Shown here: positions 6,869-48,159 of the stretch, piece after piece
Numbering within the stretch: position 1 is the stretch's first letter
How the letters are laid out: every line of letters starts with the position of its first letter
Position numbers and translations under genes: made by a program
Notes under the pieces: model-generated
The model's database searches: none
Seen by the model: only the letters and a program-made list of their open reading frames with translations
Told to the model about the DNA's origin: nothing
From: an uncultured Actinomycetota bacterium
GTDB lineage: Bacteria; Actinomycetota; Actinomycetes; Propionibacteriales; Nocardioidaceae
Direction: 5' to 3'
Assembly: GCA_963827025.1 (NCBI GenBank)
Contig: CAWGZB010000005.1
Span: forward strand, 711,471 to 775,470
DNA: 64,000 bases

Positions 6869-8896
<2,028 letters not shown>

Positions 8897-8945
8897 ACAC
8901 CGCGACGGAACACGCTCTGCGCTCCGGTCTCGCCGGGAACGCCGC

Positions 8946-22555: not shown

Positions 22556-22646
22556 CCGCGCAGCACGCCAGGTGTCGGGACCCGTCCGGGCGAAGGATCG
22601 GCTCGCAGTAGTCTCCCGGTGGACCACCGGACCCCCGAGGAGAGTC

Positions 22647-25447: not shown

Positions 25448-28400
25448 ATGACTTCGTTCCTCACCTCGACCTCCACCCAGCCCGAGCCCGACCACCCGAC
25501 CGACCGGTCGACCGCCGCGCGCACCCTGGCCGAGGAGCTGGCCGCCGAGGAGTTCGTGCTCGCCTTCGCAGGACAGGGCGCGGACTGGCTGGACACCGTG
25601 CGCCGGCTGGCCGAGGAGGACCCCGCGGCCGGCCGGCTCGACCAGCTGGTCGCCGCCTCCGCGGCCGCGGTGGCGCCGGTCGACGGTGAGCTCGTCGCCG
25701 CCCTCCCCCGGCCCTTCGACCCGTCCGGGTGGTTGGGGGCGCAGCCTTCGCCGCAGGACCTGGTCACGCCCTCTGTCTCGGTGCCCGGCGTGCTGCTCAC
25801 CCAGCTGCTCACCCTCGACCACCTCGCCGTCGAGGGTCTCGACCTGGCGCACACCGCCCCGGCCGCCGCAGTCGGCCACAGCCAGGGCATCCTCGGTGTC
25901 GCGGCATTCGCCGGCCGCCGGGAGGGGACGGGCCATCGCGGTGACGTCGAGATCCTGGCGATCGCCCGACTCGTGGGCGCCGCCGCCACGCTCGTCGCCC
26001 GGCGCCACCGTCTCGCCGGTCACGGCCCGGACGGCCCCATGCTGGCCGTCAACGGGGCGACCCGCCCCGAGCTCGAGGCCCTGCTCCCCGACGGCGCCGT
26101 GATCGCGGCGGTGAATGGTCCGCGCCACCTGGTGCTCAGCGGCATGCCGCAGGCCCTGCGGCAGCTGCGTACGGCGGTCGAGCGTCGCCGCGACACGGAC
26201 CGCGCCGAGGTGGACCTCAAGCGACGGGGCGGCCGCCTCCTCGACCCCACCATGGAGCCCGTCGCCGCCGCCGCCGGTTTCCACCACCCCGGGCTGGCCC
26301 CGGCGGTCGACCTCGTCGGCGCCTGGGCCGAGCGCTGCGGGCTGGACCGTGAGCTCGCCGAGCACCTCGCCCGCGCGATCTGCGTGGAGCCGGTCGACTG
26401 GCCGCGGGAGCTGACCGACGCGGTCGGTGAGCGCACCCGCTGGGTCCTCGACGTGGGGCCCGGCGAGGTGACCGCACGCCTGACTGCGCGCGCGCTGCGT
26501 GGCCGTGGCGTCACCGTCGTGCCCGCCGCGACCCCCACGGGCCGTGACCAGCTGTTCACCGCCGGCGCCGAGGTGGAGCGCGCGGGTGACTGGTCGACGT
26601 ACGCCCCGCGACTCATCGACCGAGGCGACGGCCGCCCCGTGGTCGACACCGCGTTCACGCGGCTGACCGGCAAGTCCCCGATCCTGCTGGCCGGCATGAC
26701 GCCCACCACGGTGGACCCGGAGATCGTGGCGGCGGCCGCGAACGCCGGTCACTGGGCCGAGCTCGCCGGCGGCGGACAGGTCACCGAGGCCATCTTCGAG
26801 CGCAACGTCGGCCGGCTCACCGAGCTGCTCGAGGAGGGCCGGACGGCGCAGTTCAACGCACTCTTCCTCGACCCCTACCTGTGGAAGCTACAGGTCGGCG
26901 GCCGGCGGCTGGTCCAGAAGGCGCGGCAGGCCGGCGCACCCTTCGACGGGTTGGTCGTCAGCGCCGGCATCCCCGACCTCGAGGACGCGGTCGCGCTCGT
27001 CGACGACCTGCAGGAGGCCGGACTGACCCACGTGGTGTTCAAGCCCGGCACCGTGCGGCAGATCCGCCAGGTCCTCGCCATCGCCCGTGAGGTTGCCACC
27101 CCCCTGGTGGTGCACATCGAGGGCGGCGCGGCCGGCGGCCACCACTCCTGGGAGGACCTCGACGAGCTGCTGCTGGCGACGTACGCCGAGCTCCGGGAGG
27201 TGCCGGACCTGGTCGTGTGTGTCGGCGGCGGCATCGGTACGCCGGACCGGGCGGTGGAGTACCTGACCGGTCGCTGGTCGGTGGCCCACGGCGAGGCGCC
27301 CATGCCGGTGGACGGCGTCCTGGTCGGGACCGCGGCGATGGCCACCCGGGAGGCGACCACCTCGGCGCAGGTCAAGCACCTGCTCGTGCAGACCCCCGGC
27401 ATCGAGACCGGCTGGGTCGGCGCCGGCACCAGCGCCGGCGGGGTGACGTCGGGACGGAGTCAGCTGGGCGCGGACATCCACGAGGTCGACAACGCGGCGT
27501 CGCGGTGTGGCCGGCTCCTCGACGAGGTGGCCGGAGACGCCGAGGCCGCGCTGGCTCGCAAGGAGGAGCTGGTCGCGGCGATGGCCGGGACCTGCAAGCC
27601 CTACTTCGGCGACGTGGCCGAGATGACCTACGAGCAGCTGCTGCGCCGCTACCTCGAGCTCGCCGGCCCCCGGCCCTCGACGAGCCCGGTCACCGCAAGG
27701 GGTTGGCTGGACGTCACCTTCGCCGAGCGCTTCCAGGCGCTGCTCGACCGGGCGGTGGCCCGGCTGCACCCGGAGGCCTCGGGTCGGGTCCCGCGGATCG
27801 AGCTCGACCTCTCCGACCCCGCCGCTGCGGCGGCCGCCGTCGACACGCTCGTGGCACAGTTCCCGCAGGCGGCGGACTGCCGGCTGCACCCGGCCGACGT
27901 GCACCACTTCCTCGAGGTGTGCCGGCGCCTCGGCAAGCCCGTCACCTTCGTCCCGGTGATCGATGCCGACGTACGCCGGTGGTGGCGGTCGGACTCGCTG
28001 TGGCAGGCCCACGACGAGTCCTACGGGGCCGACCAGGTGATCGCCATCCCCGGCCCGGTCGCGGTCGGTGGGATCACCGAGGCCGACGAGCCGGTCGCCG
28101 ACCTGCTCGACCGCTTCGAGGCCGCGGTCGCCGACGCGGTCGGTGACGCCACACCGGCAGCTGCGGCCGCCAGCCGGACCACCGTCGGCGCGGACACCAC
28201 GCTGCTCGATGCGGCCTACGACGCCAGCGACGTGGTGTGGGCGGGCCGGGTCGTGCCGAACCCGCTGCACCGGCTGACCGACACCGGCGCCGAGCTGGTG
28301 CCGGACGGGCCTCGCGGGGCGGTGCTGCGGGTGCCGCTCGGCGGCGACGACCTGCGCCTGCGGCTTGATCTCTCGGGCGTGCCGCAGGGTCGCCTCCCCG

Positions 28401-31400
28401 TCGTCACCGAGGAGGCGGCGACCGCGGCGATGGGCGAGCTGCTCACCCGGACCGCCGGCGGAGAACTGCCCGAGCTAGTGGAGGCCCCCGCCGGCGGTTG
28501 CGCCACCCGGACGGTGGCGTGGTCCCCGGACCTCGCTGCCGACCACGCTGCCGTCACCGACCCGGTGCGCCGGCGCCGCGAGGAGCGGACGGAGCCGGAG
28601 ACCGGCACCGTCCCCGACGCGCTCGTGGGCCTGGCCTGGCCGGCCGTGTTCGCCTGCATCGGGCCGGTCGAGGGCCTGTTGGACCTCGTGCACCTCGACC
28701 ACCGGATCGAGATCGCGGGTCCGGAGGTGCTGGCCGGGCTCGAGCAGGCGAAGCCGGTCACCGTCACTGCGAGCCGGGCCGGGGTCACGCACACCGGCGC
28801 GGGTCAGGTGATCGAGGTGCACGGGGAGCTGACGTCCGCGGACCAGCAGCTCGCGACGCTGCACGAGCGGTTCCTCGTGCGGGGCCGGGGCGGCGCCGAG
28901 GATCTGACTGCACCGGGCTCCCTGGCGCCGGACGCCGTCGACCGCCCGCGGGCCCGGCTCGACCGCTGCACGCTCACCGCACCGGAGCACCTCGGTGCCT
29001 TCGCCGCGGTCAGCGGCGACCACAACCCGCTGCACACCGAGCTCGCCGCCGCCCGGCTCGCCGGGTTCGACAGCCCGATCGTGCACGGCATGTGGCTCTC
29101 CGCGGTGGCCCAACGTCTCGCTGCCGGCGCCGGGGCGGTGCACCGGCCGCGGCAGGTCCGCAGCTGGCTGGCCCGCTGGGTGGCGCCGCTCCTGCCCGGG
29201 CAGGAGGTCGAGGTCATCGTCGAGCGCACCGGGGTGCGCGCAGGCGACACCGTCGTCGAGGTGAGCTGCCGCGCCGCCGGAGAGCTGGTCATGGTCGCCG
29301 AGGCCGTGCTCGCCGCTCCCCTCACGGCCTACGCCTTCCCCGGTCAGGGCATCCAGAGCCAGGGCATGGGGCTCGACGCCCGCTCCCGCTCCGCCGCTGC
29401 CCGCGAGGTCTGGGACCGCGCGGACCGGCACACCCGCGAGGCGCTCGGCTTCTCGATCCTGGCCGTCGTACGCGACAACCCCACGGAGCTGGATGCCGAG
29501 GGCGAGGCGCACCGGCACCCCGACGGCGTGCTGTTCCTGACCCAGTTCACCCAGGTCGCGATGGCCACGCTCGCGGTCGCGCAGGTCGCCGAGCTGCGCG
29601 AGGCCGGCGTGTTCGTCGAGGGCGCGGTGAGCTGCGGGCACTCGGTCGGTGAGTACAACGCTCTGGCCGCGGTCACCGGCATCCTGCCGCTCGAGGCGCT
29701 GCTGGAGATCGTGTTCCGCCGCGGCATGGCGATGCACCACCTGGTGCCGCGCGACGCACAGGGGCGCAGCGACTTCCGGCTGGCCGCGATCCGCCCTGCG
29801 CAGGCCGGCCTGGCCGACGACGAGGTCACCGGCTTCGTCGACGAGTTGGCTGCGCGGACCGGCGAGTTCCTGCAGATCGTCAACTTCAACCTGCGCGGCT
29901 CGCAGTACGCCGTCGCCGGCACCGTCGCCGGTCTCGAGGCCCTCGAACGCGAGATCGAGCGGCGTCGGGCCGAGGCCGGTGGCAAGCCGGCCTTCATCCT
30001 GGTGCCGGGGGTCGACGTGCCGTTCCACTCCGAGCAGCTGCGGGCCGGCGTGCCGGAGTTCCGCGCCCGGCTCGAGGGGCTGCTGCCCGAGCGGATCGAC
30101 GCAGGCATGCTGGTGGGCCGCTACATCCCCAACCTGGTGCCGCGGCTGTTCACCGTGGACCGGGACTACGTCGCGGAGGTCGCAGCGTACGTCGACGCGC
30201 CGGCGCTCGACGCCGTGCTCGCGGACTGGGAGCAGGCCTGCGCCGACCCGGACCGGCTCGCGCGGACCCTGCTCGTCGAGCTGCTCGCCTGGCAGTTCGC
30301 CAGCCCGGTGCGCTGGATCGAGACCCAGGATCTGCTCCTCGGCTCTGCCGAGCAGGGCGGCCTCGGGGTCGAGCAGCTGGTGGAGGTCGGAGTGGCCAAC
30401 GCGCCCACCCTGGCCAACCTGGCCGCGCAGACGACGCGGCTGGCGTCGTTCACCGGGTCGGTCCCGCGCATCCTGAACTCCTCCCGCGACGCCCAGGCGG
30501 TCCTGGCCGAGGACGCCCCCCTTCTTGACCCCGACGACGAAGACCCGCGAGGCGTCGCAGATGTGCACGCCGAGGACGCCGAGGCGTCGCAGAAAGGCGG
30601 CGAATCGACCGGCGAGCACACATCTGCGACGCCTCAGCAGGCTGTCGACGCACATCCGCGACGCCTCGGCGAAGAGAGTGAGCGGCCGGCCGACCTCACC
30701 TTCACAGCGGCCGATGCGACCGCGCTGCTGGCGGCGCTGCGCACCAAGGTGCGGCTCGACCAGATCGGCCCGGCCGACACGATCGAGGCCCTCTGCGACG
30801 GCGTGTCCTCGCGGCGCAACCAGGTGCTCGTGGACCTCGGCGCGGAGCTCTCGCTCGGGGCGATCGACGGTGCGGCCGAAGCGGACTGGACCTCGCTCGC
30901 CGCGACCGTGGACAAGCTGGCCCGCGGCTACACGCCCTTCGGGCCCGTGCTGACCGAGGCGGTCGCCGAGCAGCTGCGCAGCTTCGCGCAGTCCTCGGGG
31001 GCACGTCCGTCGGCGATCACCGACCGGGTGCGCGACACCTGGCAGCTCGGGGCGGGCTGGGTGGCACACGTCTCGGCCGCCCTGGCCGCCGGCCTGCGCA
31101 GCGGCACGTCGACCCGCGGAGGCGACCTCGGGTCCGACCTTCCCGCGGACCTCGACGGTGCGGTCGACCAAACCGTCCAGCAGGTGGCGGCCGCCCAGGG
31201 CGTGCAGGTCGCACTCCCTGCGAGCGGGGGCGCGGAGGCCACCGTCGACGCAGCCGCGCTGGGTGAGCTGACGGCGGAGATCACCGGCCCCGACGGGGTT
31301 CTGGCGAGCACCGCACGGCACCTGCTCGGACAGCTCGGCATCCGCCCCGACGATGCATCCGCCGAGGACGACGGCGACCTCGACGCCGGCCTGGCGCGAC

Positions 31401-34400
31401 TGGTCGAGGCCGAGCTGGGGCCGGACTGGGCCCGCAAGGTCGCGCCCGCCTTCGACGCGGACCGTGCCGTCCTGCTCGACGACCGCTGGGCCTCGGCGCG
31501 TGAGGACCTCGCCCGGGCATGGACCGGGGACGAAGACGTGCGGGACCGTTCGTTCGCCAATCTCGACCCGGCCGCCTTGGCACAGGCCTCCTGGTGGCTG
31601 GCCCGTGCCCGCCGCGAGCAGCGCACCGACCTGGTCAGCTTCTACGGCGGCGTGCTCGCCCGCAGCGAGCAGGACCTGCCGTGGGCCGACGAGGTCGCCG
31701 TGGTGACCGGCGCCGCGCCGGGATCGATCGCCGCCGCAGTGGTGGCCGACCTGCTCCGCGGCGGCGCGACCGTGGTGGCCACGAGCTCACGGCTCGACGC
31801 CGAGCGGACGTCGTACTTCCGCGCCCTCTACCGCGACCACGCCACGACCGGCGCGGCCCTGTGGGTGCTGCCGGCCAACCTGGCGTCGTACGCCGACATC
31901 GACGCGTTGGTCGACTGGATCGCCGCGCCGGTGGTCGAGGAGGCCGGCGGCCAGCGCACCGAGCTGCGGCCGGGTCTGGACCCGACCCTGCTCTTCCCCT
32001 TCGCCGCCCCGCAGGTCCAGGGGTCGGCTGCCGATGCCGGCGCGCGCGCCGAGCTGGAGCTGCGGGTCCTGCTGCTGGGCGTGGAGCGCCTGGTCACGGG
32101 GCTGGCCGCGAAGGGTGCGGACCACCGGATCGGCCGGCGGGTGCACGTCGTGCTGCCCGGCTCCCCGAACCGGGGCCGCTTCGGCGGCGACGGAGCCTAC
32201 GGAGAGGCCAAGGCCGCGTTCGACGCGTTCGTGCAGCGTTGGCACGCCGAGACCGAGTGGGCACGCCGGGTCTCCCTGGTGCACGCCCAGATCGGTTGGG
32301 TGCGCGGCACCGGGCTGATGGGCCACAACGACCCGCTGGTGGACGCCGTCACGGCGCAGGGTGTGCGCACGTTCGCGCCCACCGAGATGGCGGCCGAGCT
32401 GCTCACGCTGTGCCGCCCGGGCGCGCGTGCCGAGGCAGCCGAGGCACCGCTCGCCGCCGATCTCACCGGCGGCCTGGACGAGGTCGAGCTCGACCTGGCC
32501 ACGCTGGCGAGGGAGACTCGTGCGTCCGTGGCTTCGACGAGCCCACTTTCGGAGGGCTCGACCACCGAGGCGGACGAAGCCACGGTGGAGGCGCTCACCC
32601 ATCCCGCCGGGTGGCGGACCCGGCAGCCGACGATGGCGTGGCCGGAGGTCACCTCCCGTCCCGAGGACATGGTCGTGATCGTGGGTGCCGGCGAGGTCGG
32701 CCCGCTCGGCTCCTCGCGCACCCGCTGGGAGCTCGAGGTGGAAGACCACCTCTCCCCTGCCGGAGTGCTGGAGCTGGCCTGGGTGACCGGCCGGATCGTG
32801 TGGGAGCACAACCCCGTGGCCGGCTGGCACGACGCCGCCACCGGTGAGCCACTCTCCGAGTCGCAGATCGTGGAGCGCTTCGCCGAGGAGATCGAGGCCG
32901 GCGTGGGCATCCGCCGGTTCGCAGACGACGGCGCGATGGTCGACGGCACCGCACCGCTGGTGCTTCCGGTCTTCCTCGAGGAGGACACCTCCTTCCTGGT
33001 CAGGACTCGTGCGGAGGCCGACGCCTTCCGCGAGGCCGACCCCGAGCGGACCCGCGTCACCGCGACCGCGGACGGCGACTGGCAGGTCACCCGGCTGGCC
33101 GGCAGCCAGGTGCGCGTGCCACGGCGGTTCAAGCTGTCCCGCTACGTCGGCGCCCAGGTGCCCGCCGGGTTCGACCCGGCTGTCTACGGGCTGGGGTCGA
33201 TGACCGAGTCGGTCGACCGGCTCGCGGCCTGGAACCTGGTGGCCACCGTGGACGCCTTCGTCGCCAGCGGGGTGGAGCCCGCGGACCTGCTGCGCTGGGT
33301 CCACCCGACCCGCCTGGCCAACACCCAGGGCACCGGGATCGGCGGGATGCAGTCGACGCGGAAGATGTACGTCGACGCGTTGCTCGGGGAGACCCCGCCG
33401 AACGACGTGCTCCAGGAGGCGCTGCCGAACGTGATCGCAGCCCACACGGTGCAGTCCTATCTCGGCGGGTACGGCGCCATGGTGCACCCCGTCGCCGCGT
33501 GCGCGACCGCAGCCGTGAGCGTCGAGGAAGCCGTCGACAAGATCCGGCTGGACAAGGCGAGCGTCGTGGTCGCCGGTGGGTTCGACGACCTCGGCATCGA
33601 GGGCATCCTCGGCTTCGGCAACATGAGCGCCACCGCCGACACCGATCAGATGCTCGCCCGTGGGATCGAGGAGCGGCACGTGTGCCGGCCCAACGACCGC
33701 CGGCGCGGCGGGTTCGTCGAGGGACAGGGCGGCGGCACCGTCCTCCTGGCCCGCGGCGACGTGGCCGCCGACCTCGGCCTGCCGGTGCTCGGCGTGGTCG
33801 CCTACGCCGGGTCGTTCGCCGACGGCGTGCACACCTCGATCCCGGCGCCGGGCCTCGGTGCGCTGGGAGCGGGTGTCGGCGGCGCGGACTCGCCGCTGGC
33901 CCGCGGCCTCGCCGAGCTCGGGCTGGGTGCCGACGACGTGGCCGTGGTCTCCAAGCACGACACCTCCACCGCCGCCAACGACCCCAACGAGTCGCGCCTG
34001 CACGAGCGGCTGGCCGCGGCCGTCGGCCGCACGGACGGAGCGCCGCTCTACGTGGTCAGCCAGAAGTCGCTGACCGGCCACGCCAAGGGCGGTGCCGCGG
34101 CCTTCCAGCTGGTCGGGCTCTGCCAGCTGCTCGCCGACGGGGTGGTGCCGGCCAACCGCGGCCTGGACTGCGTCGACGACGCGCTGGCGGAGAATCCGCA
34201 CCTGGTCTGGTTGCGCGAGCCACTGCGGACGGGGCCGCTGCGGGCGGGGCTGCTGACCAGCCTGGGCTTCGGGCACGTCTCTGCGCTGCTTGCGGTCGTG
34301 CACCCTGGTGCCTTCGTGGCGGCGCTCGAAACGGGGCGGCGCGAGGCCTGGCTGCGCCGGGCGACTGACAGGCTGAAGGCCGGCGAGCAGCGCCGCCTGG

Positions 34401-34558
34401 AGGCGATGCACGGCGGTGACCCGCTCTACCGTCGACCGGAGCGCCGACGGTTCGCCGAGACGGACATCGACGTCGTGCGCGACGACGAGAGCGCGATGCT
34501 GCTCGACCCGCGGGCGCGCCTGGGCGAGTCCGGGGTCTACGCGAGGTCGGCCCGATGA
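25448..34558 (+). CDS. fas: Type I fatty acid synthase (actinobacterial FAS-I; AT-ER-DH-MPT-ACP-KR-KS)
   Basis: Uninterrupted 3036-aa ORF. AT GHSQG (25874-25888). FMN/TIM-barrel ER region (SPILLAGMTPTTV...HIEGGAAGGHHS). Hot-dog DH (VSGDHNPLHT, ~29010). MPT (AFPGQGIQSQGMG, GHSVGEYNAL ~29638). ACP (DGVSSRRNQVLVDLG, Ser codon 30806-30808). KR Rossmann fold (VAVVTGAAPGSIAAAV, ~31690). KS active-site Cys in VAACATAAVS (33500-33502), plus SKHDTSTAANDPNE and KSLTGHAKGGAAA. Confidence 0.95.
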   Translation: MTSFLTSTSTQPEPDHPTDRSTAARTLAEELAAEEFVLAFAGQGADWLDTVRRLAEEDPAAGRLDQLVAASAAAVAPVDGELVAALPRPFDPSGWLGAQPSPQDLVTPSVSVPGVLLTQLLTLDHLAVEGLDLAHTAPAAAVGHSQGILGVAAFAGRREGTGHRGDVEILAIARLVGAAATLVARRHRLAGHGPDGPMLAVNGATRPELEALLPDGAVIAAVNGPRHLVLSGMPQALRQLRTAVERRRDTDRAEVDLKRRGGRLLDPTMEPVAAAAGFHHPGLAPAVDLVGAWAERCGLDRELAEHLARAICVEPVDWPRELTDAVGERTRWVLDVGPGEVTARLTARALRGRGVTVVPAATPTGRDQLFTAGAEVERAGDWSTYAPRLIDRGDGRPVVDTAFTRLTGKSPILLAGMTPTTVDPEIVAAAANAGHWAELAGGGQVTEAIFERNVGRLTELLEEGRTAQFNALFLDPYLWKLQVGGRRLVQKARQAGAPFDGLVVSAGIPDLEDAVALVDDLQEAGLTHVVFKPGTVRQIRQVLAIAREVATPLVVHIEGGAAGGHHSWEDLDELLLATYAELREVPDLVVCVGGGIGTPDRAVEYLTGRWSVAHGEAPMPVDGVLVGTAAMATREATTSAQVKHLLVQTPGIETGWVGAGTSAGGVTSGRSQLGADIHEVDNAASRCGRLLDEVAGDAEAALARKEELVAAMAGTCKPYFGDVAEMTYEQLLRRYLELAGPRPSTSPVTARGWLDVTFAERFQALLDRAVARLHPEASGRVPRIELDLSDPAAAAAAVDTLVAQFPQAADCRLHPADVHHFLEVCRRLGKPVTFVPVIDADVRRWWRSDSLWQAHDESYGADQVIAIPGPVAVGGITEADEPVADLLDRFEAAVADAVGDATPAAAAASRTTVGADTTLLDAAYDASDVVWAGRVVPNPLHRLTDTGAELVPDGPRGAVLRVPLGGDDLRLRLDLSGVPQGRLPVVTEEAATAAMGELLTRTAGGELPELVEAPAGGCATRTVAWSPDLAADHAAVTDPVRRRREERTEPETGTVPDALVGLAWPAVFACIGPVEGLLDLVHLDHRIEIAGPEVLAGLEQAKPVTVTASRAGVTHTGAGQVIEVHGELTSADQQLATLHERFLVRGRGGAEDLTAPGSLAPDAVDRPRARLDRCTLTAPEHLGAFAAVSGDHNPLHTELAAARLAGFDSPIVHGMWLSAVAQRLAAGAGAVHRPRQVRSWLARWVAPLLPGQEVEVIVERTGVRAGDTVVEVSCRAAGELVMVAEAVLAAPLTAYAFPGQGIQSQGMGLDARSRSAAAREVWDRADRHTREALGFSILAVVRDNPTELDAEGEAHRHPDGVLFLTQFTQVAMATLAVAQVAELREAGVFVEGAVSCGHSVGEYNALAAVTGILPLEALLEIVFRRGMAMHHLVPRDAQGRSDFRLAAIRPAQAGLADDEVTGFVDELAARTGEFLQIVNFNLRGSQYAVAGTVAGLEALEREIERRRAEAGGKPAFILVPGVDVPFHSEQLRAGVPEFRARLEGLLPERIDAGMLVGRYIPNLVPRLFTVDRDYVAEVAAYVDAPALDAVLADWEQACADPDRLARTLLVELLAWQFASPVRWIETQDLLLGSAEQGGLGVEQLVEVGVANAPTLANLAAQTTRLASFTGSVPRILNSSRDAQAVLAEDAPLLDPDDEDPRGVADVHAEDAEASQKGGESTGEHTSATPQQAVDAHPRRLGEESERPADLTFTAADATALLAALRTKVRLDQIGPADTIEALCDGVSSRRNQVLVDLGAELSLGAIDGAAEADWTSLAATVDKLARGYTPFGPVLTEAVAEQLRSFAQSSGARPSAITDRVRDTWQLGAGWVAHVSAALAAGLRSGTSTRGGDLGSDLPADLDGAVDQTVQQVAAAQGVQVALPASGGAEATVDAAALGELTAEITGPDGVLASTARHLLGQLGIRPDDASAEDDGDLDAGLARLVEAELGPDWARKVAPAFDADRAVLLDDRWASAREDLARAWTGDEDVRDRSFANLDPAALAQASWWLARARREQRTDLVSFYGGVLARSEQDLPWADEVAVVTGAAPGSIAAAVVADLLRGGATVVATSSRLDAERTSYFRALYRDHATTGAALWVLPANLASYADIDALVDWIAAPVVEEAGGQRTELRPGLDPTLLFPFAAPQVQGSAADAGARAELELRVLLLGVERLVTGLAAKGADHRIGRRVHVVLPGSPNRGRFGGDGAYGEAKAAFDAFVQRWHAETEWARRVSLVHAQIGWVRGTGLMGHNDPLVDAVTAQGVRTFAPTEMAAELLTLCRPGARAEAAEAPLAADLTGGLDEVELDLATLARETRASVASTSPLSEGSTTEADEATVEALTHPAGWRTRQPTMAWPEVTSRPEDMVVIVGAGEVGPLGSSRTRWELEVEDHLSPAGVLELAWVTGRIVWEHNPVAGWHDAATGEPLSESQIVERFAEEIEAGVGIRRFADDGAMVDGTAPLVLPVFLEEDTSFLVRTRAEADAFREADPERTRVTATADGDWQVTRLAGSQVRVPRRFKLSRYVGAQVPAGFDPAVYGLGSMTESVDRLAAWNLVATVDAFVASGVEPADLLRWVHPTRLANTQGTGIGGMQSTRKMYVDALLGETPPNDVLQEALPNVIAAHTVQSYLGGYGAMVHPVAACATAAVSVEEAVDKIRLDKASVVVAGGFDDLGIEGILGFGNMSATADTDQMLARGIEERHVCRPNDRRRGGFVEGQGGGTVLLARGDVAADLGLPVLGVVAYAGSFADGVHTSIPAPGLGALGAGVGGADSPLARGLAELGLGADDVAVVSKHDTSTAANDPNESRLHERLAAAVGRTDGAPLYVVSQKSLTGHAKGGAAAFQLVGLCQLLADGVVPANRGLDCVDDALAENPHLVWLREPLRTGPLRAGLLTSLGFGHVSALLAVVHPGAFVAALETGRREAWLRRATDRLKAGEQRRLEAMHGGDPLYRRPERRRFAETDIDVVRDDESAMLLDPRARLGESGVYARSAR
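30544..30672. repeat. Copy A of the 32-bp-periodic inverted-repeat element, lying in-frame inside fas
   Basis: Forward units are 30548-30566 (cgaggcgtcgcagatgtgc) and 30575-30593 (gacgccgaggcgtcgcaga). Reverse units are 30616-30635 (gcacacatctgcgacgcctc) and 30650-30670 (gcacatccgcgacgcctcggc). Same-arm units are exactly 32 bp apart. The centre contains cgaatcg, as in copy B. Outer boundaries are approximate. Confidence 0.85.
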
Positions 34559-35016
34559 CGGCCCTGAAGGTGGCCCTGGTCGAGGGCGCCGGCGACCGGC
34601 CCGCCGAGGGCGTGGGGGTCGACGTGGTGTCGATCTCGGCCTTCGCCGATCAGCTGGAGGAGCCGGGCACCCGCTTCGCCCGGGCGTTCACGCCCGCCGA
34701 GCGGCGTACGGCAGCACGCGCGAGCGGAGGTCCGGCACAGAGCCTGGCCACCCGCTGGGCGGCCAAGGAGTCGGTGGTCAAGGCATGGTCGAGCACGCAC
34801 TTCGGGCACCCGGAGGTGATCGACCCGGCGCACGTGGACCTGCGCGAGATCGAGGTCCGCAGCGACCGCTGGGGACGACCCGAGGTGCGGCTGCACGGGG
34901 CGATCGCCCGCTCGATGGGCGGGTACGACGTCCGGCTGTCGCTCTCCCATGACGCCGATGCCGACGTGGCGATCGCCTTCGTCGTGCTGCACGAGAGGAG
35001 CGACCGCGATGCCTGA
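34555..35016 (+). CDS. acpS: Holo-[acyl-carrier-protein] synthase (4'-phosphopantetheinyl transferase AcpS)
   Basis: Its ATG overlaps the fas TGA (ATGA, 34555-34558). Motifs GVGVDVVSISAF, RWAAKESVVKA, LSLSHDADADVAIAFVVL. Confidence 0.85.
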   Translation: MTALKVALVEGAGDRPAEGVGVDVVSISAFADQLEEPGTRFARAFTPAERRTAARASGGPAQSLATRWAAKESVVKAWSSTHFGHPEVIDPAHVDLREIEVRSDRWGRPEVRLHGAIARSMGGYDVRLSLSHDADADVAIAFVVLHERSDRDA

Positions 35017-36976
35017 GACGCTCACCAGTGTCCTGCCGGCCCTGGTGGTCCGACTGCTGGTCGACGACGGCGCCGAGGTGGCCGCGGGGCAACCGGTCGC
35101 CGTCACCGAGACGATGAAGTGCGAGCAGACCCTGACCGCGCCGACGGCGGGGCGGCTGCGCTGGCGCTGCGCCGCCGGTGACGTGGTCGAGGCCGCCGAG
35201 GTGCTCGGCGACGTCGAGGCAGTGACCGACGTGCCGGCGACCCCGGGGCGGGCCCGTCCGCGGCGCCCCCTGACACCGCAGCAGGTGGTCGACCTGGTGT
35301 GCGGGCCGGGGGCGGCTCCGGAGCTCGGCGCGGCGGCGCGCAGCGGGACGTTCGTGGAGCACGACCTCGTCCCCTCCGACGTCACCCGGGCGACCCCGGA
35401 CACCGGCGACCGGCTCCGCTCGGTGGCCGACGACGCGGCCTTCCGACGCGAGTGCGGCGTGATGGTCGGGGTGATGACCCATCGCCTCGACGGTCACCCG
35501 CAGGGCGTCTCCCGGGTGTGGATCGGCGGCGACCCTGCCCGCTCCATGGGTGCGGTCAGCGAGGCGGAGTGCCGGCGGATCATCGCCGCGATCGACCTCG
35601 CCGAGCGGCTCGGCGTACCCCTGGAGTGGGTGGCGGTCTCCGCGGGTGCCCGGATCGCCTGGGACACCGGCACCGAGAACATGGACTGGTGCGCGGCGGT
35701 GGTCGCCAAGCTGGTCCGGTTCACCCAACGCGGCGGCCAGGTCGTCGTGGTGGTCAACGGCATCAACGTCGGCGCCCAGTCCTACTGGAACGCCGAGGCC
35801 ACGATGCTCGGTCACCACCAGGGCATGCTGGTGATGCTGCCGGAGCAGGCGATGGTGCTCACCGGCAAGCGCGCGCTGGCGCTCAGCGGCGGTGGCAACC
35901 ATCGCGACGACGCGGCGATCGGCGGGTACGACGAGGTGATGGGCCCCAACGGCCAGGCGCACCACCGCGCCGCCGACCTGGTGGAGGCCTACCGCCTGGT
36001 GTTCACCCACCACACCCTGTGCACCCGCCGGCGCGACGAGCAGCCGGCCGCGGTGGAGACGGTCGATCCGCTCGACCGTGACATCAGCATCGACCCCTAC
36101 CCGGAGGCCGAGCCGTTCCACTCCGTCGGGGACATCCTCGACGATCTCGCCCACCCCAGCCGCAAGCAGGCCTTCGCGATCCGGCCGGTGATGGGGGCCG
36201 TCGTCGACCGGGACGCGCCCGTCCTGGAGCGGTGGACCGACATGGCCGACGCTGCGGGCACGGTGGTGTGGGACAGCCGCCTCGGCGGGCTGCCCACCAC
36301 CGTCATCGGGATCGAGTCGCGCCCGCACAGCGCCGACACCGGCGACCACTGGCTCTCCGGGGCGACCCTGCACCCGGAGGGCGCCCGCAAGGTGGCACGT
36401 GGGATCAACGCCGCCAGAGGCAACCGGCCGGTCGTGGTCCTGGCGAACCTGGCCGGCTTCGACGGCAGCGCCCGCTCGATGCGCGGGCGGCAGCTGGAGT
36501 ACGGCGCCGAGATCGCCCGCGCCGTCACCAACTTCGAGGGTCCGTTGGTCGTGGTCGTGCTCGGGCGCTTCCACGGCGGCGCCTACGTGGTGTTCAGCAA
36601 GGCGTTGAACCCGAACGTCTCGATCGTCGCGCTCGAGGGCACCTACGTCTCGGTGATCGGTGGCGACTCGGCGGCGGGCGTGGTGTTCGCCGGCGAGCTG
36701 AAGAAGCGGGTGGCCGCGGCTCTGCAGGCCGATCCCGGCGCCGACCGCGAGGCGGTTCACCGCCGGGAGCGCGACCTGCTGGCTCGGGAGTTCGACCGGG
36801 TGCACGACGTACGCCGGGCCGCGCAGGTCGGCTCCATCGACGAGGTCATCCGGCCGCGGGAGGTGCGCGCGACGGTGGCGCGACTGCTCGGGGTACCGCA
36901 GGCGCGGCCCGACCTCGACGGCGCTCAGGAGGCGGAGCGGTTCCGCGCGGCGTCAGCCTCGGCGGCGAGCAGGTAG
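35009..36976 (+). CDS. Biotinyl (BCCP-like) domain fused to a eukaryotic-ACC-type carboxyltransferase domain; no biotin carboxylase domain
   Basis: ATG at 35009 overlaps the acpS end (ATGCCTGA). The N-terminal ~72 aa form a biotinyl/lipoyl-type domain with ETMKCE (Lys codon 35117-35119). The rest aligns by eye to the yeast/animal ACC CT: VSAGARIAWD (cf. ANSGARIG), LGGLPTTVIGIESR (cf. LGGIPVGVIAVETR), VVLANLAGFDGSARSM (cf. ILANWRGFSGGQRDM), FHGGAYVVFSKALNPN (cf. LRGGSWVVVDPTIN). Confidence 0.8.
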   Translation: MPETLTSVLPALVVRLLVDDGAEVAAGQPVAVTETMKCEQTLTAPTAGRLRWRCAAGDVVEAAEVLGDVEAVTDVPATPGRARPRRPLTPQQVVDLVCGPGAAPELGAAARSGTFVEHDLVPSDVTRATPDTGDRLRSVADDAAFRRECGVMVGVMTHRLDGHPQGVSRVWIGGDPARSMGAVSEAECRRIIAAIDLAERLGVPLEWVAVSAGARIAWDTGTENMDWCAAVVAKLVRFTQRGGQVVVVVNGINVGAQSYWNAEATMLGHHQGMLVMLPEQAMVLTGKRALALSGGGNHRDDAAIGGYDEVMGPNGQAHHRAADLVEAYRLVFTHHTLCTRRRDEQPAAVETVDPLDRDISIDPYPEAEPFHSVGDILDDLAHPSRKQAFAIRPVMGAVVDRDAPVLERWTDMADAAGTVVWDSRLGGLPTTVIGIESRPHSADTGDHWLSGATLHPEGARKVARGINAARGNRPVVVLANLAGFDGSARSMRGRQLEYGAEIARAVTNFEGPLVVVVLGRFHGGAYVVFSKALNPNVSIVALEGTYVSVIGGDSAAGVVFAGELKKRVAAALQADPGADREAVHRRERDLLAREFDRVHDVRRAAQVGSIDEVIRPREVRATVARLLGVPQARPDLDGAQEAERFRAASASAASR

Positions 36977-37578
36977 GCGGTCAGCAGGCGCTTGAGCTCC
37001 ACCACCGCGTCCGGGTGCGACTGCCCGTCGCGGATGGAGAAGTTCAGCATCGAGTAGGTGACGTGCACGAGCACCTCGGCGATGGCCTGCCGGTGGGTGA
37101 TCTTCGAGCCGGGAGTCAGGGGCGCCAGCAGCCGGGTCACCTCGGTGGCCAGCTCGCGCTCGTGCTCGGCGGCGACCACGCGGGTGGGTGGGGTCGCCTG
37201 CATCGCCAGCCACACCGCCCGCCGGGAGGGGTCGGTACGCCACAGCCCCGCGAGGTGGTCCAGCAGCTTCTCCAGCAGCTGAGCCCAGTCCAGGCTGGGG
37301 ATCTCCGCCGCGAACTTGTCCAGCTCCTTCTTGACGTTCTCGGTGTCGAGGCGGTCGAGCTCGCAGACGATGGCGTACTTGTTGCCGAAGAATTGGTAGA
37401 GCGACCCGATCGGCACACCCGCCCGCAGCGCCACCTGCTCGGCGGTGAACGCCTCGAACCCGACTTCGACCAGCAGCGCCCGCGCAGCCCGGAGGATCTC
37501 GTCGAAGCGGCGGCGGCTGCGCTCCTGGGCCGGTCGGCGACGCGGCAGGAAGTCGGTCAGCTCGCTGGGCTTGGTCAT
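36925..37578 (-). CDS. TetR/AcrR family transcriptional regulator
   Basis: MTKPSELTDFLPRRRPAQERSRRRFDEILRAARALLVEVGFEAFTAEQVALRAGVPIGSLYQFFGNKYAI (HTH). Its 3' end overlaps the convergent BCCP-CT gene by 52 bp. Its start lies 16 bp from repeat copy B. Confidence 0.85.
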   Translation of the reverse strand: MTKPSELTDFLPRRRPAQERSRRRFDEILRAARALLVEVGFEAFTAEQVALRAGVPIGSLYQFFGNKYAIVCELDRLDTENVKKELDKFAAEIPSLDWAQLLEKLLDHLAGLWRTDPSRRAVWLAMQATPPTRVVAAEHERELATEVTRLLAPLTPGSKITHRQAIAEVLVHVTYSMLNFSIRDGQSHPDAVVELKRLLTAYLLAAEADAARNRSAS

Positions 37579-37593
37579 GTGCCCACGGTAAGG

Positions 37594-37776
37594 GACGCCG
37601 AGGCGTCACAGATGTGCGTCCGACGTACGCCGAGGCGTCACGGATGTGCATCCCAGGCACGCCCAGGCGTCACGGATGTGCAGTACCGAATCGGCCCCCA
37701 CCACAGGCCAGTCCGTATTGCCGCATATCTGCGACGCCTCGCCGCTCTCCGCGCGCACATCTGCGACGCCTCGGCG
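37594..37776. repeat. Copy B of the 32-bp-periodic inverted-repeat element (3 forward + 2 reverse units); it fills the intergenic region
   Basis: Forward units are 37594-37617 gacgccgaggcgtcacagatgtgc, 37626-37649 tacgccgaggcgtcacggatgtgc and 37658-37681 cacgcccaggcgtcacggatgtgc. A 41-nt centre contains accgaatcgg. Reverse units are 37723-37744 gcatatctgcgacgcctcgccg and 37755-37776 gcacatctgcgacgcctcggcg. Unit starts are exactly 32 bp apart within each arm. Confidence 0.9.
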
Positions 37777-37779
37777 GAA

Positions 37780-39360
37780 TCAGTCGAGGGTGATCCTGAC
37801 CTTGCCGGAGCGATAGACCCGCAGGGTGCCGTGCGCGAAGTCGGCGTACCGGCCGCGCCTGAAGCGCTTCGGTTTGGTCTCGGGCAGCCCGAGGACCGAC
37901 TTGGTGCCGCCGCGGCGCAGGTAGACACGCATCACCCGGCCCCAGAGCTCGTGCGCGCCGGTGTCCGGGCTCCACCAGATCCGTCCGTGCGCGAAGCGCC
38001 GCACCCGGCCACCGCTCACCGCACGCTCGCGGGTCCTGGCGCTGCCCAGCCGCCCCTTGGCGCCGCCGAGCTGCTGCCACCGCTTCGTGATCGGGCTGCC
38101 CGTGGCCGGCGCCGGCGCCGGCGCGGGCGCGGGGGTGGCGGAGCCGCCGCTGCCGCCGCTGCTGGTGCCACCGCCCGCGGTCGGCCCGAAGCTGAACCAG
38201 TCCGAGCGCAGGCCGAAGGTGAAGCGGAAGGTGTTGCCGCTGACCGTGACGTCGGACCGGGAGCCGTCGAGGGTCATCTTCTCCACCCGGCCGTACCAGT
38301 CACCGTTGCCGTTGCGCTGGGTGACCACGATCCGCTTGAGCTTACCGAGCGCCGGCCAGGCCGACTGGATCCGGGAAGCTGCGAGCTTCGTGGTCCAGGT
38401 GTGCATCGGGTTGCCGCTGAAGTCGTCGTAGGGGTCGGCCTGGGCCGGCAGGTACGGCACGCTCCCGGCAGAGGTCCAGCCGCCGCTGGAGGAGCCAAAC
38501 TGGGTGAACGCCGGGCGGCCGCCGTAGGTGAGGACCTCCCCCGCGGTCGCGTCGACCGCCGCGTTGCCCCGGGAGTCCTCCGAGCTCAGACCCCCGTAGA
38601 CCTGGCAGGACGTGGTGTCGCAGGTCTGGTAGTAGCGGGTCGCGTGGTCGCTGCGGTCGCGCGCGGCATAGGTCCGGGCGGCCACCGCTTGCGCCTGCAC
38701 CGCGGCGGGCAGCCACGATGCCGGCATCTCCCGAGGCACCACGCCCTTGACGTAGTCCTCCAGGGGCAGCACGTTCACGGTGTCCTTGTTGACCAGGCGG
38801 AGCGCTCCGCGATAGATGCGCGAGCCGGAGCCCAGCCGCAGGGTGAGCGGCACCTTCGCCTCGAACTGCGCCGCCCCGTCGAGCGTGCGCCAGGCGTGCC
38901 AGGAGCCCTGGTGGTACTCCACCGCGGTGCCGCCGCTCGCGGGGCGCAACCGCCAGGAGGTGGCACCCACGTCCGTGGGCACGGGGTACGACGACCCGCC
39001 AGACACCGCCCGGACCCGCAGCCCCTTGGCCGGATCGACCTGGACGTTGTTGTCGCTGTCGGCGGTGATCAGCACCCGGATCTCGTCCCCGGCCGAGCCG
39101 AAGCTCGTGCCCGGGTAGTAGAAGCGGAGGATCTGCCGGTAGCCGAGTCCCTGACGCGCGGCCCCCTGGGCGCCGTACTGGGACATGCCGTGGCCGTGGC
39201 CGTAGCCGTGTCCGGTCACCGTGAAGGTGCCGCCGGAGGGGACGGTGTAGACCTGCGAGACCGAGCGCGAGGCGACGGCCGGCTCGCCCGGCGCCATGGT
39301 CGCGGCGACCGCGACCGCCAGGACCGCTCCGGTTGCCGCGCGGCGGACCTGCTGTGACAT
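37780..39360 (-). CDS. Secreted SpoIID/LytB-domain protein with C-terminal LGFP-like repeats
   Basis: Signal-peptide-like N-terminus (MSQQVRRAATGAVLAVAVAATMAPGEPAVA). SpoIID core GHGYGHGHGMSQYGAQGAA..YRQILRFYYPGT and YLKGVVPREMP...EAVQAQAVAARTYA. The tail has two repeats resembling LGFP (LGSARTRE...HGRIWWSP; LGLPETKP...HGTLRVYR). Confidence 0.85.
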   Translation of the reverse strand: MSQQVRRAATGAVLAVAVAATMAPGEPAVASRSVSQVYTVPSGGTFTVTGHGYGHGHGMSQYGAQGAARQGLGYRQILRFYYPGTSFGSAGDEIRVLITADSDNNVQVDPAKGLRVRAVSGGSSYPVPTDVGATSWRLRPASGGTAVEYHQGSWHAWRTLDGAAQFEAKVPLTLRLGSGSRIYRGALRLVNKDTVNVLPLEDYVKGVVPREMPASWLPAAVQAQAVAARTYAARDRSDHATRYYQTCDTTSCQVYGGLSSEDSRGNAAVDATAGEVLTYGGRPAFTQFGSSSGGWTSAGSVPYLPAQADPYDDFSGNPMHTWTTKLAASRIQSAWPALGKLKRIVVTQRNGNGDWYGRVEKMTLDGSRSDVTVSGNTFRFTFGLRSDWFSFGPTAGGGTSSGGSGGSATPAPAPAPAPATGSPITKRWQQLGGAKGRLGSARTRERAVSGGRVRRFAHGRIWWSPDTGAHELWGRVMRVYLRRGGTKSVLGLPETKPKRFRRGRYADFAHGTLRVYRSGKVRITLD

Positions 39361-46860: not shown

Positions 46861-46872
46861 GACCGTCCCCGG

Positions 46873-47052: not shown

Positions 47053-47143
47053 CGTCAGCTCCTGGGTCGGGGGAAGTCGGCCGGTTGCCTCCTCCACCGT
47101 TGTACCAAGCGCAGGCCCGGCACGGCGGGAGGCGCGCCCCGAC

Positions 47144-48094: not shown

Positions 48095-48159
48095 CGCCCG
48101 GGCGTCCCCCTCGCGGGCCTTCTCGACGAGCTCGGGGACGTTGCCCCTCGTCCGCCGGC

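What the first reader, a model, noticed from the sequence alone, without database searches (positions are those of the whole stretch)
30544..30672. Palindromic repeat element with exact 32-bp unit spacing sits in-frame inside the type I FAS gene, in the MPT-ACP linker
Four copies of a ~20-24-nt unit (approximate consensus GACGCCGAGGCGTCRCRGATGTGC) lie inside the fas ORF. Two are forward (30548-30566, 30575-30593) and two are reverse-complemented (30616-30635, 30650-30670). Units on the same arm are exactly 32 bp apart, and the arms can pair into one ~125-nt hairpin. In the fas frame the stretch reads PRGVADVHAEDAEASQKGGESTGEHTSATPQQAVDAHPRRLGEE. This is a hydrophilic segment after the malonyl/palmitoyl transferase domain and ~40 codons before the ACP phosphopantetheine serine (DGVSSRRNQ). 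The same nucleotide element, including the shared central cgaatcg, occurs in a non-coding gap 7 kb away (37594-37776). The similarity is therefore at the DNA level and is not a protein motif. This looks like colonisation of an essential megasynthase gene by an interspersed palindromic element that is tolerated because it landed in a flexible inter-domain linker. It is conceptually like the Rickettsia palindromic elements that insert in-frame into ORFs. It would also place a strong RNA hairpin, or a 3-helical-turn-phased protein-binding array, in the middle of a 9-kb mRNA.
Basis: partly seen in the sequence, partly recalled or inferred. Interest (0 to 1): 0.78.

Follow-up and report, generated by a model that had tools for sequence, protein, structure and literature searches.

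The report
Palindromic repeat recoding FAS linker
A short palindromic DNA repeat that normally sits between genes in some soil actinobacteria lies in-frame inside the giant fatty acid synthase gene, where it encodes the flexible tether of the acyl carrier domain; this is a new, actinobacterial example of a phenomenon already known from Rickettsia and other bacteria.

Summary
An 18-nt unit (GAGGCGTCRCRGATGTGC) occurs nine times in the 64-kb window, against about 0.9 expected by chance. All nine copies lie in two converging arrays with exact 32-bp spacing. One array (2+2 units, 30544-30672) is in-frame in the type I FAS gene; the other (3+2 units, 37594-37777) fills a non-coding gap.

It belongs to a dispersed repeat family. 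The same architecture was found on 19 soil metagenome contigs and at the syntenic gap of an 89%-identical relative. Most copies sit just after stop codons between housekeeping genes.

FAS genes of relatives at 73-80% identity lack the element. They carry an ordinary acidic Ala/Pro linker at that site.

The fas copy has the lowest GC3 of the whole gene, and fas reads it in the only frame of six that gives an acidic, Cys-free, stop-free peptide.

- It replaced the linker (net +12-18 aa). It is not a clean +43 aa insertion.
- The hairpin is not an outlier among windows of this GC-rich mRNA.
- Single units are not hairpins, so this is not a classical REP.

No transposase, target duplication or published name was found. 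I class it as a new variant of a known kind (RPE or intragenic-REP-like), of moderate interest.

The parts
25448..34558 (+). Type I fatty acid synthase ORF (3036 aa), intact
   Evidence: ORF and translation. A 300-aa stretch matches M. smegmatis and M. tuberculosis FAS structures at E~1e-75. The orthologue in L110 carries the full set of FAS Pfam domains. GC3 is 0.93.
30544..30672 (+). Palindromic repeat element inside fas: 129 bp (43 codons), 2 forward and 2 reverse units. It encodes almost the whole variable part of the MPT-ACP linker (codons 1699-1742).
   Evidence: GC3 is 0.70, the lowest 44-codon stretch of the gene. The frame used is the only acidic, Cys-free, stop-free frame of six.
30549..30566 (+). 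Forward unit 1 (GAGGCGTCGCAGATGTGC)
   Evidence: 0 mismatches; nhmmer E=1.4e-5.
30581..30598 (+). Forward unit 2 (GAGGCGTCGCAGAAAGGC), with a degenerate tail
   Evidence: 3 mismatches; nhmmer E=1.6e-4. It starts 32 bp after unit 1.
30599..30617 (.). Central loop region containing CGAATCG, which is also present in the centre of the intergenic copy
   Evidence: Read directly.
30618..30635 (-). Reverse unit (inner)
   Evidence: 1 mismatch; nhmmer E=2.2e-5.
30650..30667 (-). Reverse unit (outer)
   Evidence: 0 mismatches; nhmmer E=1.4e-5. It starts 32 bp from the inner unit.
37594..37777 (.). Intergenic copy of the same element: 3 forward units (37600, 37632, 37664) and 2 reverse units (37723, 37755). 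It fills the gap between the SpoIID/LGFP gene stop and the TetR gene start.
   Evidence: A syntenic copy with 4+4 units is present in relative L088.
36925..37578 (-). TetR-family regulator gene. Its start codon lies 16 bp from the intergenic element.
   Evidence: Pfam TetR_N and TetR_C_22. The gene order fas-acpS-acc-TetR is conserved in L088, L110 and L111.
37780..39360 (-). SpoIID/LGFP-domain gene. Its stop codon abuts the other end of the intergenic element.
   Evidence: Pfam.
34555..35016 (+). acpS (4'-phosphopantetheinyl transferase), overlapping the fas stop codon
   Evidence: Pfam ACPS.
34949..36976 (+). Carboxyltransferase/biotin-carrier (ACC-type) gene, used as the anchor for finding relatives
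   Evidence: Pfam; homologues.

Best explanation
The fas segment is a copy of a dispersed, modular, non-coding repeat family of Nocardioidaceae-like soil actinobacteria.

What the family looks like (shown):
- The building block is a 32-nt unit: an almost invariant 18-nt core (CGCY-GAGGCGTC-R-C-R-GA-T), a 5-6-nt tail that differs between elements and lineages, and a loosely conserved spacer.
- Units form short tandem arrays of 1-5 copies. Usually two arrays converge, so the locus is one long imperfect palindrome.
- Unit number varies between orthologous loci.
- The usual home is the 3' intergenic space between convergent or co-directional genes.

Inferred for the family: there the palindrome is co-transcribed and behaves like REP/BIME-type 3' hairpins, and the invariant core is the recognition site of an unidentified trans-acting protein that spreads or homogenises the copies.

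What happened in fas:
- Shown: a 2+2 copy of the same tail subtype as the copy 7 kb downstream occupies the DNA for the disordered Ala/Pro/Glu-rich peripheral ACP linker.
- Inferred: it got there by insertion plus deletion, or by microhomology-assisted copying from the nearby element.
- Shown: it replaces the ancestral linker codons, is 129 bp long (a multiple of 3), and is read in the one frame of six that gives an acidic, Cys-free, stop-free peptide.
- Inferred: the synthase therefore still works with a recoded tether. The low GC3 marks the acquisition as recent. The element most likely has no dedicated function in fas.
For: Family and architecture:
- 9 units in the window against 0.9 expected, at a 32-bp period.
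- 19 metagenome contigs and L088 show the same core and period, with 1-5 forward and 1-4 reverse units.
- Where flanks are visible, the copies mostly sit within ~10-20 bp of stop codons. At least nine loci are between convergent genes, and others are between co-directional genes. The flanking genes are unrelated housekeeping genes.
- Four groups of orthologous loci have different unit numbers.

Core constraint: at the YceI/thiolase locus, third-codon-position identity between species is 0.69-0.85. Yet the 13-nt core is 38/39 identical over the shared units, while tails and spacers differ.

Homogenisation within elements: tail identity is 0.72 for inverted pairs, 0.80 for direct pairs and 0.39 between elements.

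The fas copy:
- It is absent from fas in L108, L109 and L110, which have Ala/Pro/Glu linkers there.
- All 49 orthologues have an unalignable linker of 39-87 aa at this site. The window has 66 aa with atypical composition.
- GC3 is 0.70 against 0.93 gene-wide, the gene's minimum.
- Only the frame used has a net negative charge, and it has no Cys or stop.

A second intragenic case: two degenerate units encode an 11-aa insertion in the inter-domain linker of an AccD1-like carboxyltransferase.

Published precedent: intragenic REPs and RPEs encoding 20-82 aa (PMC3733652).
Against: - No target-site duplication, no autonomous parent and no transposase were found in the window's 42 ORFs or next to the metagenomic copies. 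Mobility is therefore inferred from distribution only.
- The genome-wide copy number in the source organism could not be measured. The genome-contig scan was wasted on single chance hits.
- The net length change (+12-18 aa) does not fit a simple insertion.
- Some loci carry only direct arrays (L089, L099, L101, L107). The palindrome is therefore not obligatory, and an RNA-hairpin role cannot be the whole story.
- No other protein in about 5.8 billion (word search) or 1.84 billion (HMMER) sequences carries a detectable element-encoded peptide in this phase. In-frame copies of this kind are therefore rare.
- The closest fas comparators are only 73-80% identical, so the age of the event is poorly bounded.
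Confidence: 0.72

Rival explanations
1. The arrays are functional protein-binding sites. The invariant core, repeated every 32 bp (about 3 helical turns, so on the same face of the helix), is bound cooperatively by a host DNA-binding protein. That protein could be the neighbouring FasR-like TetR regulator or a nucleoid or insulator protein. On this view the fas copy and the copy in front of the TetR gene form a regulatory pair for lipid synthesis, for example as a roadblock or a loop.
For: - The 32-bp phase is exact in every array of every locus.
- The core evolves more slowly than synonymous sites at orthologous loci.
- Direct-only arrays exist, so pairing is dispensable.
- One copy lies 16 bp upstream of a TetR gene that is syntenic with fas-acpS-acc, and that copy is positionally conserved in L088.
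Against: - The relatives L110 and L111 keep the same fas-acpS-acc-TetR synteny without any unit in about 22 kb each.
- Most family members lie at 3' ends between convergent, unrelated housekeeping genes, not in promoters.
- A TetR gene flanks only 2 of about 12 independent loci, which is compatible with chance.
- The 32-bp period is equally explained by tandem duplication of a 32-nt unit.
- The core is not a dyad, unlike typical TetR operators.
Confidence: 0.12
2. The fas copy is a purely local event. A patch of the intergenic element 7 kb away was copied into the fas linker by ectopic gene conversion or template switching at microhomologies, because GCC-GAG-GCG (Ala-Glu-Ala) codons resemble the unit head CGCCGAGGCG. 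No transposition was involved. The family as a whole would then be vertically inherited structured intergenic DNA rather than a mobile element.
For: - Both window copies share the TGTGC tail subtype and the central CGAATCG.
- The result is a replacement rather than an insertion.
- The element-free relative L110 has GAGGCG and CGCCTCGG 62 bp apart in its linker, in the orientation of the element's termini. L108 and L109 have CCGAGGC or GAGGCG there.
- No target-site duplication was found.
- Several loci are clearly orthologous between species, that is, vertically inherited.
Against: - GAGGCG is common in this GC-rich gene (15 copies in fas). The chance of the L110 pair is roughly a few percent, by my own rough estimate from the motif counts, so the hint is weak.
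- The spacers of the two window copies are not especially similar.
- The family occupies many unrelated loci in several lineages, and tails are more alike within an element than between elements (the contigs were not binned to genomes). Pure vertical descent does not easily produce that pattern.
Confidence: 0.12
3. Chance, or a coding-driven resemblance. On this view the linker's repetitive Ala/Glu/Asp codons happen to mimic the intergenic repeat, or the segment is a conserved protein motif.
For: Low-complexity linkers are built from repetitive GC-rich codons. The motif head GCCGAGGCG is Ala-Glu-Ala in the fas frame.
Against: - There are four 18-nt matches with 0-3 mismatches, in both orientations and at exact 32-bp spacing, against 0.9 matches expected in the whole window.
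- Successive units are read in different frames, so no repeated peptide results.
- The 49 orthologues have no homologous peptide at this site.
- GC3 drops to the gene's minimum there.
Confidence: 0.02

Closest known systems
Rickettsia palindromic elements (RPE-1, RPE-4 and RPE-6; Ogata et al. 2000, from my own knowledge; summarised in PMC3733652)
   Same: Both are dispersed palindromic repeats of ~100-150 bp found between genes and also in-frame inside essential protein-coding genes. In both cases they add or recode a surface or linker peptide without destroying function. No transposase is associated with either.
   Different: The phylum is unrelated and no sequence relationship was tested. 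The unit architecture differs: here there are tandem 32-nt non-palindromic units in two converging arrays of variable copy number. Only one clear in-frame case and one partial case were seen, whereas Rickettsia has dozens. Here the element replaces an existing linker rather than adding a new segment.
REP/BIME elements, including the GTAG- and CGTC-tagged REP superfamilies (Di Nocera et al. 2013, PMC3733652)
   Same: Both sit immediately 3' of ORFs between convergent or co-directional genes, and one copy supplies a stop codon (L103 Fur). Sequence variants are lineage-specific. Inverted copies fold into larger hairpins. Occasional intragenic copies encode 20-82 aa. A CGTC tetranucleotide lies in the conserved core. 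As for CGTC REPs, no dedicated transposase is known.
   Different: Single units here do not fold (mean z = -0.3). REP units are themselves 20-40-nt hairpins. CGTC families have an 8-9-bp stem starting with A/T pairs, a 4-5-nt loop and a CCA tail, and none of these is present here. The strict 32-nt tandem periodicity is not a REP feature. Actinobacteria are not mentioned in the main text of that survey.
MITEs and modular repeats such as pneumococcal BOX or Neisseria Correia elements (from my own knowledge)
   Same: All are small, non-coding, have terminal inverted repeats, occur in many copies, and are often co-transcribed to form stable stem-loops. BOX elements also have a variable number of internal tandem modules.
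   Different: No target-site duplication and no related autonomous IS were found. The 'terminal inverted repeat' is itself tandemly iterated. Loci with direct arrays only also exist.
Mycobacterial MIRU/VNTR intergenic tandem repeats (from my own knowledge)
   Same: Both are actinobacterial, intergenic within or between operons, and vary in unit number between related genomes.
   Different: MIRUs are 40-100-bp direct repeats without an inverted partner array and without the 18-nt invariant core.

Membership tests
REP (repetitive extragenic palindrome) | Each 20-40-nt unit is itself an imperfect palindrome (hairpin) | tested here: not met
   88 units folded singly gave a mean MFE of -9.2 kcal/mol, with a mean z of -0.32 and a median z of -0.16 against shuffles.
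REP (repetitive extragenic palindrome) | Predominantly extragenic, close to 3' ends of ORFs, between convergent or co-directional genes | tested here: met
   At least nine loci lie between convergent genes, and others lie between co-directional genes. The distances to stop codons are about 10-20 bp.
CGTC-tagged REP families 1-4 (PMC3733652) | Unpaired CGTC tag, then an 8-9-bp stem starting with A/T pairs, a 4-5-nt loop and a CCA tail | tested here: not met
   The core contains CGTC. It is followed by RCRGAT plus a variable tail, with no unit-level stem-loop and no CCA tail.
REP/REPIN | Association with a RAYT (Y1 transposase) gene in the genome | not testable with these tools
   None of the window's 42 ORFs is a transposase.
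MITE | Terminal inverted repeats and small size (<300 bp) | tested here: met
   Converging units give 17-54-nt inverted arms, and the elements are 75-301 bp long.
MITE | Target-site duplication flanking the element | tested here: not met
   Inspection of the flanks of about 20 copies showed no consistent direct repeat.
MITE | A related autonomous IS sharing the same ends | tested here: inconclusive
   None was seen in the window or beside the metagenomic copies I scanned. In L103, arrays flank a 325-aa ORF with a weak REase_MTES_1575 hit. That arrangement may be coincidental.
RPE-like in-frame palindromic insertion | A copy of a dispersed non-coding palindromic repeat lies in-frame within an intact ORF, while orthologues lack it | tested here: met
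   The 3036-aa ORF is intact. The family is dispersed. The relatives L108, L109 and L110 lack units in the fas linker.
RPE-like in-frame palindromic insertion | The host protein gains a discrete extra segment with sharp boundaries | tested here: inconclusive
   The DNA flanks are conserved right up to the element. However, the net gain is only 12-18 aa in a hypervariable linker, so this is a replacement rather than a pure insertion.
RPE (Rickettsia) sequence family | Sequence similarity to RPE consensus sequences | not tested
The organisms belong to different phyla.
CRISPR array | Direct repeats of 23-47 bp separated by unique spacers of similar length, all in one orientation, usually with cas genes | tested here: not met
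   The conserved part is 18 nt and the 'spacers' are 10-14 nt and similar to one another. The arrays are inverted. None of the window's ORFs matched a Cas family.
Known RNA families (Rfam 15) | A match at gathering threshold | tested here: not met
   The whole window gave 0 matches. Only chance-level hits (E of 1.1 or higher) appeared around the intergenic copy.
Type I FAS MPT-ACP (peripheral ACP) linker | Lies between the conserved end of the MPT domain and the ACP core (DG[VA]SSRRNQ), in a region that is variable and low-complexity among orthologues | tested here: met
   Alignment of 49 orthologues. The alignment to M. smegmatis FAS 4v8l/4v8v shows conserved blocks on both sides and gaps across the element.

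The most novel reading that the evidence does not exclude
The 18-nt invariant core, repeated at an exact 32-bp (three-turn) phase, is the binding array of an as-yet unidentified sequence-specific protein. This protein could be a domesticated or trans-acting nuclease or transposase, or a host nucleoid or terminator factor. It would keep the family homogenised within genomes and conserved at orthologous loci. On this reading the family is a functional cis-element class of high-GC actinobacteria. The fas copy and the copy abutting the FasR-like TetR gene would couple that protein to the control of lipid synthesis.
Probability: 0.12. Interest if true: 0.75.

Novelty: new variant of a known kind. 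Interest (0 to 1): 0.5.

Why it matters
It extends the 'selfish palindromic DNA inside protein-coding genes' phenomenon, known from Rickettsia RPEs and a few proteobacterial REPs, to high-GC actinobacteria and to an essential 9-kb megasynthase.

It is also a natural experiment on the FAS ACP tether. The Ala/Pro-rich linker can be replaced by an unrelated peptide derived from a repeat, provided the peptide stays acidic and free of stops and cysteines.

Separately, the repeat family appears to be undescribed. Its architecture is unusual: non-hairpin 32-nt units in converging, copy-number-variable arrays. Its core evolves more slowly than synonymous sites, which points to an unknown protein partner worth looking for.

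On the practical side, such arrays can confuse CRISPR and repeat finders and gene callers in GC-rich MAGs.

Tried and rejected
None of the 86 loci had a second unit.
2. Exact look-ups of the window's TetR and AcpS proteins found nothing.
3. Searches of viral contigs, plasmids and phages found no copies.
4. Rfam gave no family.
5. A literature search with the unit sequence returned only unrelated primer or siRNA coincidences. Keyword searches for actinobacterial MITE, REP or RAYT were uninformative.
6. Protein-level searches for other in-frame copies found nothing: the fas linker peptide by word search and the translated intergenic element against 1.84 billion representatives.
7. A split FAS at the linker was considered, because many database hits end there. 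I rejected it: those fragments carry Arg-rich out-of-frame tails typical of frameshifted long-read assemblies.
8. The classical REP model was rejected because single units do not fold.
9. A strand-specific RNA structure (G-U against A-C asymmetry) was considered. The minus strand folds better at window_fas, window_ig and L088, but the direction is inconsistent across the family. I do not use it as evidence.
10. The simple promoter and terminator scan found nothing in the intergenic copy.
11. The TetR-operator idea was weakened because syntenic relatives lack the element.
Full report
**Observation.** The window holds a 3036-codon ORF (25448-34558, +). It is a bacterial type I fatty acid synthase. 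A 300-aa stretch around the finding matches the M. smegmatis and M. tuberculosis FAS structures at E~1e-75. The pattern GAGGCGTCRCRGATGTGC with up to 3 mismatches occurs nine times in 64 kb, against 0.89 expected and a maximum of 3 in 100 shuffles. All nine copies fall in two places:
- 30549 and 30581 (+), 30618 and 30650 (-), inside fas.
- 37600, 37632 and 37664 (+), 37723 and 37755 (-), in a non-coding gap.

A profile built from 88 family units finds no further copy in the window. Spacing within every arm is exactly 32 bp. Both loci fold into one long hairpin far better than their own shuffles: z = -5.4 and -7.8 as RNA, and -5.6 as DNA for the fas copy.

**The element belongs to a dispersed family.** The contig of a relative whose ACC protein is 89% identical (L088, farmland soil) carries the element at the syntenic gap, between the TetR gene start and the SpoIID/LGFP gene stop. 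It has 4+4 units there instead of 3+2. A two-unit pattern scan of the metagenome collection returned 19 soil contigs of 66-73% GC. Their features:
- Each has arrays of 1-5 forward and 1-4 reverse units at the 32-bp period.
- The logo of 88 units is CGCY-GAGGCGTC-R-C-R-GA-T, followed by a 5-6-nt tail that differs between elements and lineages (TGTGC, TGAAG, AATGC, TTGC...) and a loose spacer.
- Where flanks are visible, the copies mostly sit within ~10-20 bp of stop codons. At least nine loci lie between convergent genes, and others lie between co-directional genes.
- The neighbouring genes are unrelated housekeeping genes: YceI, thiolase, RidA, PLD, TetR, a glycosylase and ClpB.
- In L103 the first unit supplies the TGA stop of a Fur gene.
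- Some loci carry direct arrays only (L089, L099, L101, L107).

No copies were found in plasmids, phages or viral contigs. There is no Rfam match and no paper printing the sequence in a relevant context.

**How the family evolves.** Flank comparison groups the loci into orthologous sets: window+L088; L093+L106; L094+L095+L102; L096+L098. Three findings stand out.
- At the YceI/thiolase locus the three species differ at 15-31% of third codon positions in the flanking genes. Yet the 13-nt core is 38/39 identical over the shared units, while tails, loops, spacers and unit number differ. The core therefore changes more slowly than synonymous sites.
- Tails are more alike within an element than between elements: 0.72 for inverted pairs and 0.80 for direct pairs, against 0.39 between elements. 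Units are thus homogenised regardless of orientation.
- Single units do not fold (mean z = -0.3). The palindrome arises only from the converging arrangement of the arrays.

Together these point to a sequence-specific trans-acting partner for the core, either a mobilising or homogenising enzyme or a host factor. No candidate was identified. None of the 42 window ORFs is a transposase, and no target-site duplication is evident.

**The fas copy.** The element spans codons 1699-1742. On one side lies the conserved end of the MPT domain. On the other lie the ...ERPADLTFTAADAT... block and the ACP serine motif DGVSSRRNQ, about 45 codons downstream. All 49 aligned orthologues have an unalignable, acidic, Ala/Pro-rich linker here. 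The interval between conserved anchors is 39-87 aa, with a median of 52. The window has 66 aa, with 17% Ala and 9% Pro against 31% and 16% in the orthologues.

The closest fas genes that could be retrieved have no unit in or near the linker. These are L108 and L109 (~80% identity in the flanks) and L110 (73% overall, intact 3031-aa ORF). They encode ordinary linkers such as ...DDEPEEAPETDDTAPSTATEPVETKTASAPTAAAGDERPADL. The DNA flanks are conserved right up to the element, and the sequence between them cannot be aligned. The copy is therefore lineage-specific.

However, the net gain over the nearest relatives (48-54 aa) is only 12-18 aa, not 43. The element has replaced most of the ancestral linker.

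Two further signals mark it as foreign DNA filtered by selection:
- GC3 is 0.70 against 0.93 for the gene, the lowest 44-codon stretch of the entire ORF.
- Of the six possible readings, only the one used by fas is acidic (net -4), Cys-free and stop-free. The other five are +1 to +15, with 1-5 Cys or a stop. Native linkers are -8 to -10.

A second, older-looking intragenic case exists in L105. Two degenerate units encode an 11-aa insertion in the inter-domain linker of an AccD1/MCCB-like carboxyltransferase, relative to M. tuberculosis AccD1. Searches for other proteins carrying element-encoded peptides in this phase found nothing.

**What does not hold.** The 'strong hairpin in the middle of a 9-kb mRNA' is real against composition-matched shuffles. 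It is not an outlier within this ~75% GC mRNA: -75 kcal/mol against a mean of -69.6 ± 7.0 and a minimum of -87.9 for 435 other 141-nt windows.

The TetR-operator idea is weakened because L110 and L111 keep the fas-acpS-acc-TetR synteny without any unit.

A split FAS at the linker was considered and rejected. The database fragments ending there are frameshift artefacts.

**Most likely mechanism.**
- Shown: there is a dispersed family with an invariant core; it prefers 3' intergenic positions; unit number is variable; the fas copy is lineage-specific, in-frame and low in GC3, and replaces the linker.
- Inferred: the copies are co-transcribed and act, if at all, as REP/BIME-like 3' hairpins.
- Inferred: the core is recognised by an unknown protein that spreads or homogenises the family.
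- Inferred: the fas copy arose by insertion plus deletion, or by microhomology-assisted copying from the element 7 kb away. Both share the TGTGC tail and the CGAATCG centre. The element-free L110 linker has GAGGCG...CGCCTCGG 62 bp apart, which is only a weak hint.
- Inferred: the copy is tolerated because the peripheral ACP tether only needs to be flexible, acidic and of roughly the right length.

**Comparison with known systems.** Functionally it works like Rickettsia palindromic elements and like the intragenic REPs catalogued by Di Nocera et al. (PMC3733652). Those authors report REP clusters encoding up to 43-82 aa and find no transposase for CGTC-type REPs. It is not a member of those families, for four reasons:
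- The units are not hairpins.
- The CGTC-family stem, loop and tail rules are not met.
- The strict 32-nt tandem periodicity and the direct-only arrays are not REP features.
- Actinobacteria are not mentioned in the main text of that survey.

MITE criteria are met for terminal inverted repeats and size, but not for target-site duplication or a parent IS. CRISPR criteria are not met.

**Verdict.** It needs correction on the mode of acquisition (replacement, not a clean insertion) and on the hairpin's exceptionality. I class it as a new variant of a known kind, of moderate interest. The most interesting open point is the unidentified partner of the invariant, 32-bp-phased core.

Noticed in passing
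L105:3098-5008 (-), units at 3904-3950 and 4720-4764: An AccD1/MCCB-like carboxyltransferase gene carries two degenerate repeat units in-frame in its inter-domain linker. This gives an 11-aa insertion relative to M. tuberculosis AccD1 (4q0g). Two more units lie about 30-70 nt upstream of its likely start codon. The two arrays converge across the 5' half of the gene.
   Followed up: partly
L103:437-513 and 1781-1857, ORF 750-1727 (-): Three forward and three reverse units, 1.27 kb apart, flank a 325-aa ORF with a weak REase_MTES_1575 (PD-(D/E)XK, DUF559-like) hit. This could be a cargo or autonomous form of the element, or two independent half-elements. The first unit also provides the TGA stop codon of the upstream Fur gene (10-438).
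   Followed up: partly
L094:1101-1218, L095:9079-9154, L102:1864-1948: These are orthologous YceI/thiolase convergent-gene loci in three species. Each carries the element with an identical core but different tails, loops and unit numbers (2+2, 1+2, 2+1). This is a ready-made test set for concerted evolution against re-insertion.
   Followed up: partly
L108, L109, L111 (ENA long-read metagenome contigs): The fas genes on these contigs are broken into many ORFs with Arg-rich out-of-frame tails. These are almost certainly homopolymer or frameshift assembly errors rather than split synthases. Many FAS 'fragments' in the protein database that end at the linker have the same origin.
   Followed up: yes
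window 34949-36976 and 22572-24434: fas is embedded in a lipid-synthesis neighbourhood. It contains a biotin carboxylase/BCCP gene upstream, an SDR gene, fas, acpS, a fused BCCP-carboxyltransferase gene and a FasR-like TetR gene. The order fas-acpS-acc-TetR is conserved in relatives at 73-89% identity.
   Followed up: partly
window 1896-14001: A GlgE-pathway and glycogen cluster is present: a debranching-type enzyme, glucan phosphorylase, GlgE maltosyltransferase, a TreS-like alpha-amylase and the GlgB branching enzyme.
   Followed up: no
window 18303-19997 (-) and 62015-64000 (-): There are two methylmalonyl-CoA mutase-family genes in one 64-kb window. The second has a B12-binding domain and runs off the end of the window.
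   Followed up: no
window 59908-60324 (-): A small protein combines a ChaB domain with a Rho_N (Rho termination factor N-terminal) domain.
   Followed up: no
window 46772-48919 (+), 52403-53830 (+), 11284-11760 (-), 43173-43667 (+): Four ORFs with coding-like GC3 (0.86-0.95) have no Pfam match at E<=1e-5.
   Followed up: no
window 1-64000: No tRNA, rRNA or any other Rfam family reaches gathering threshold anywhere in the 64-kb window.
   Followed up: no
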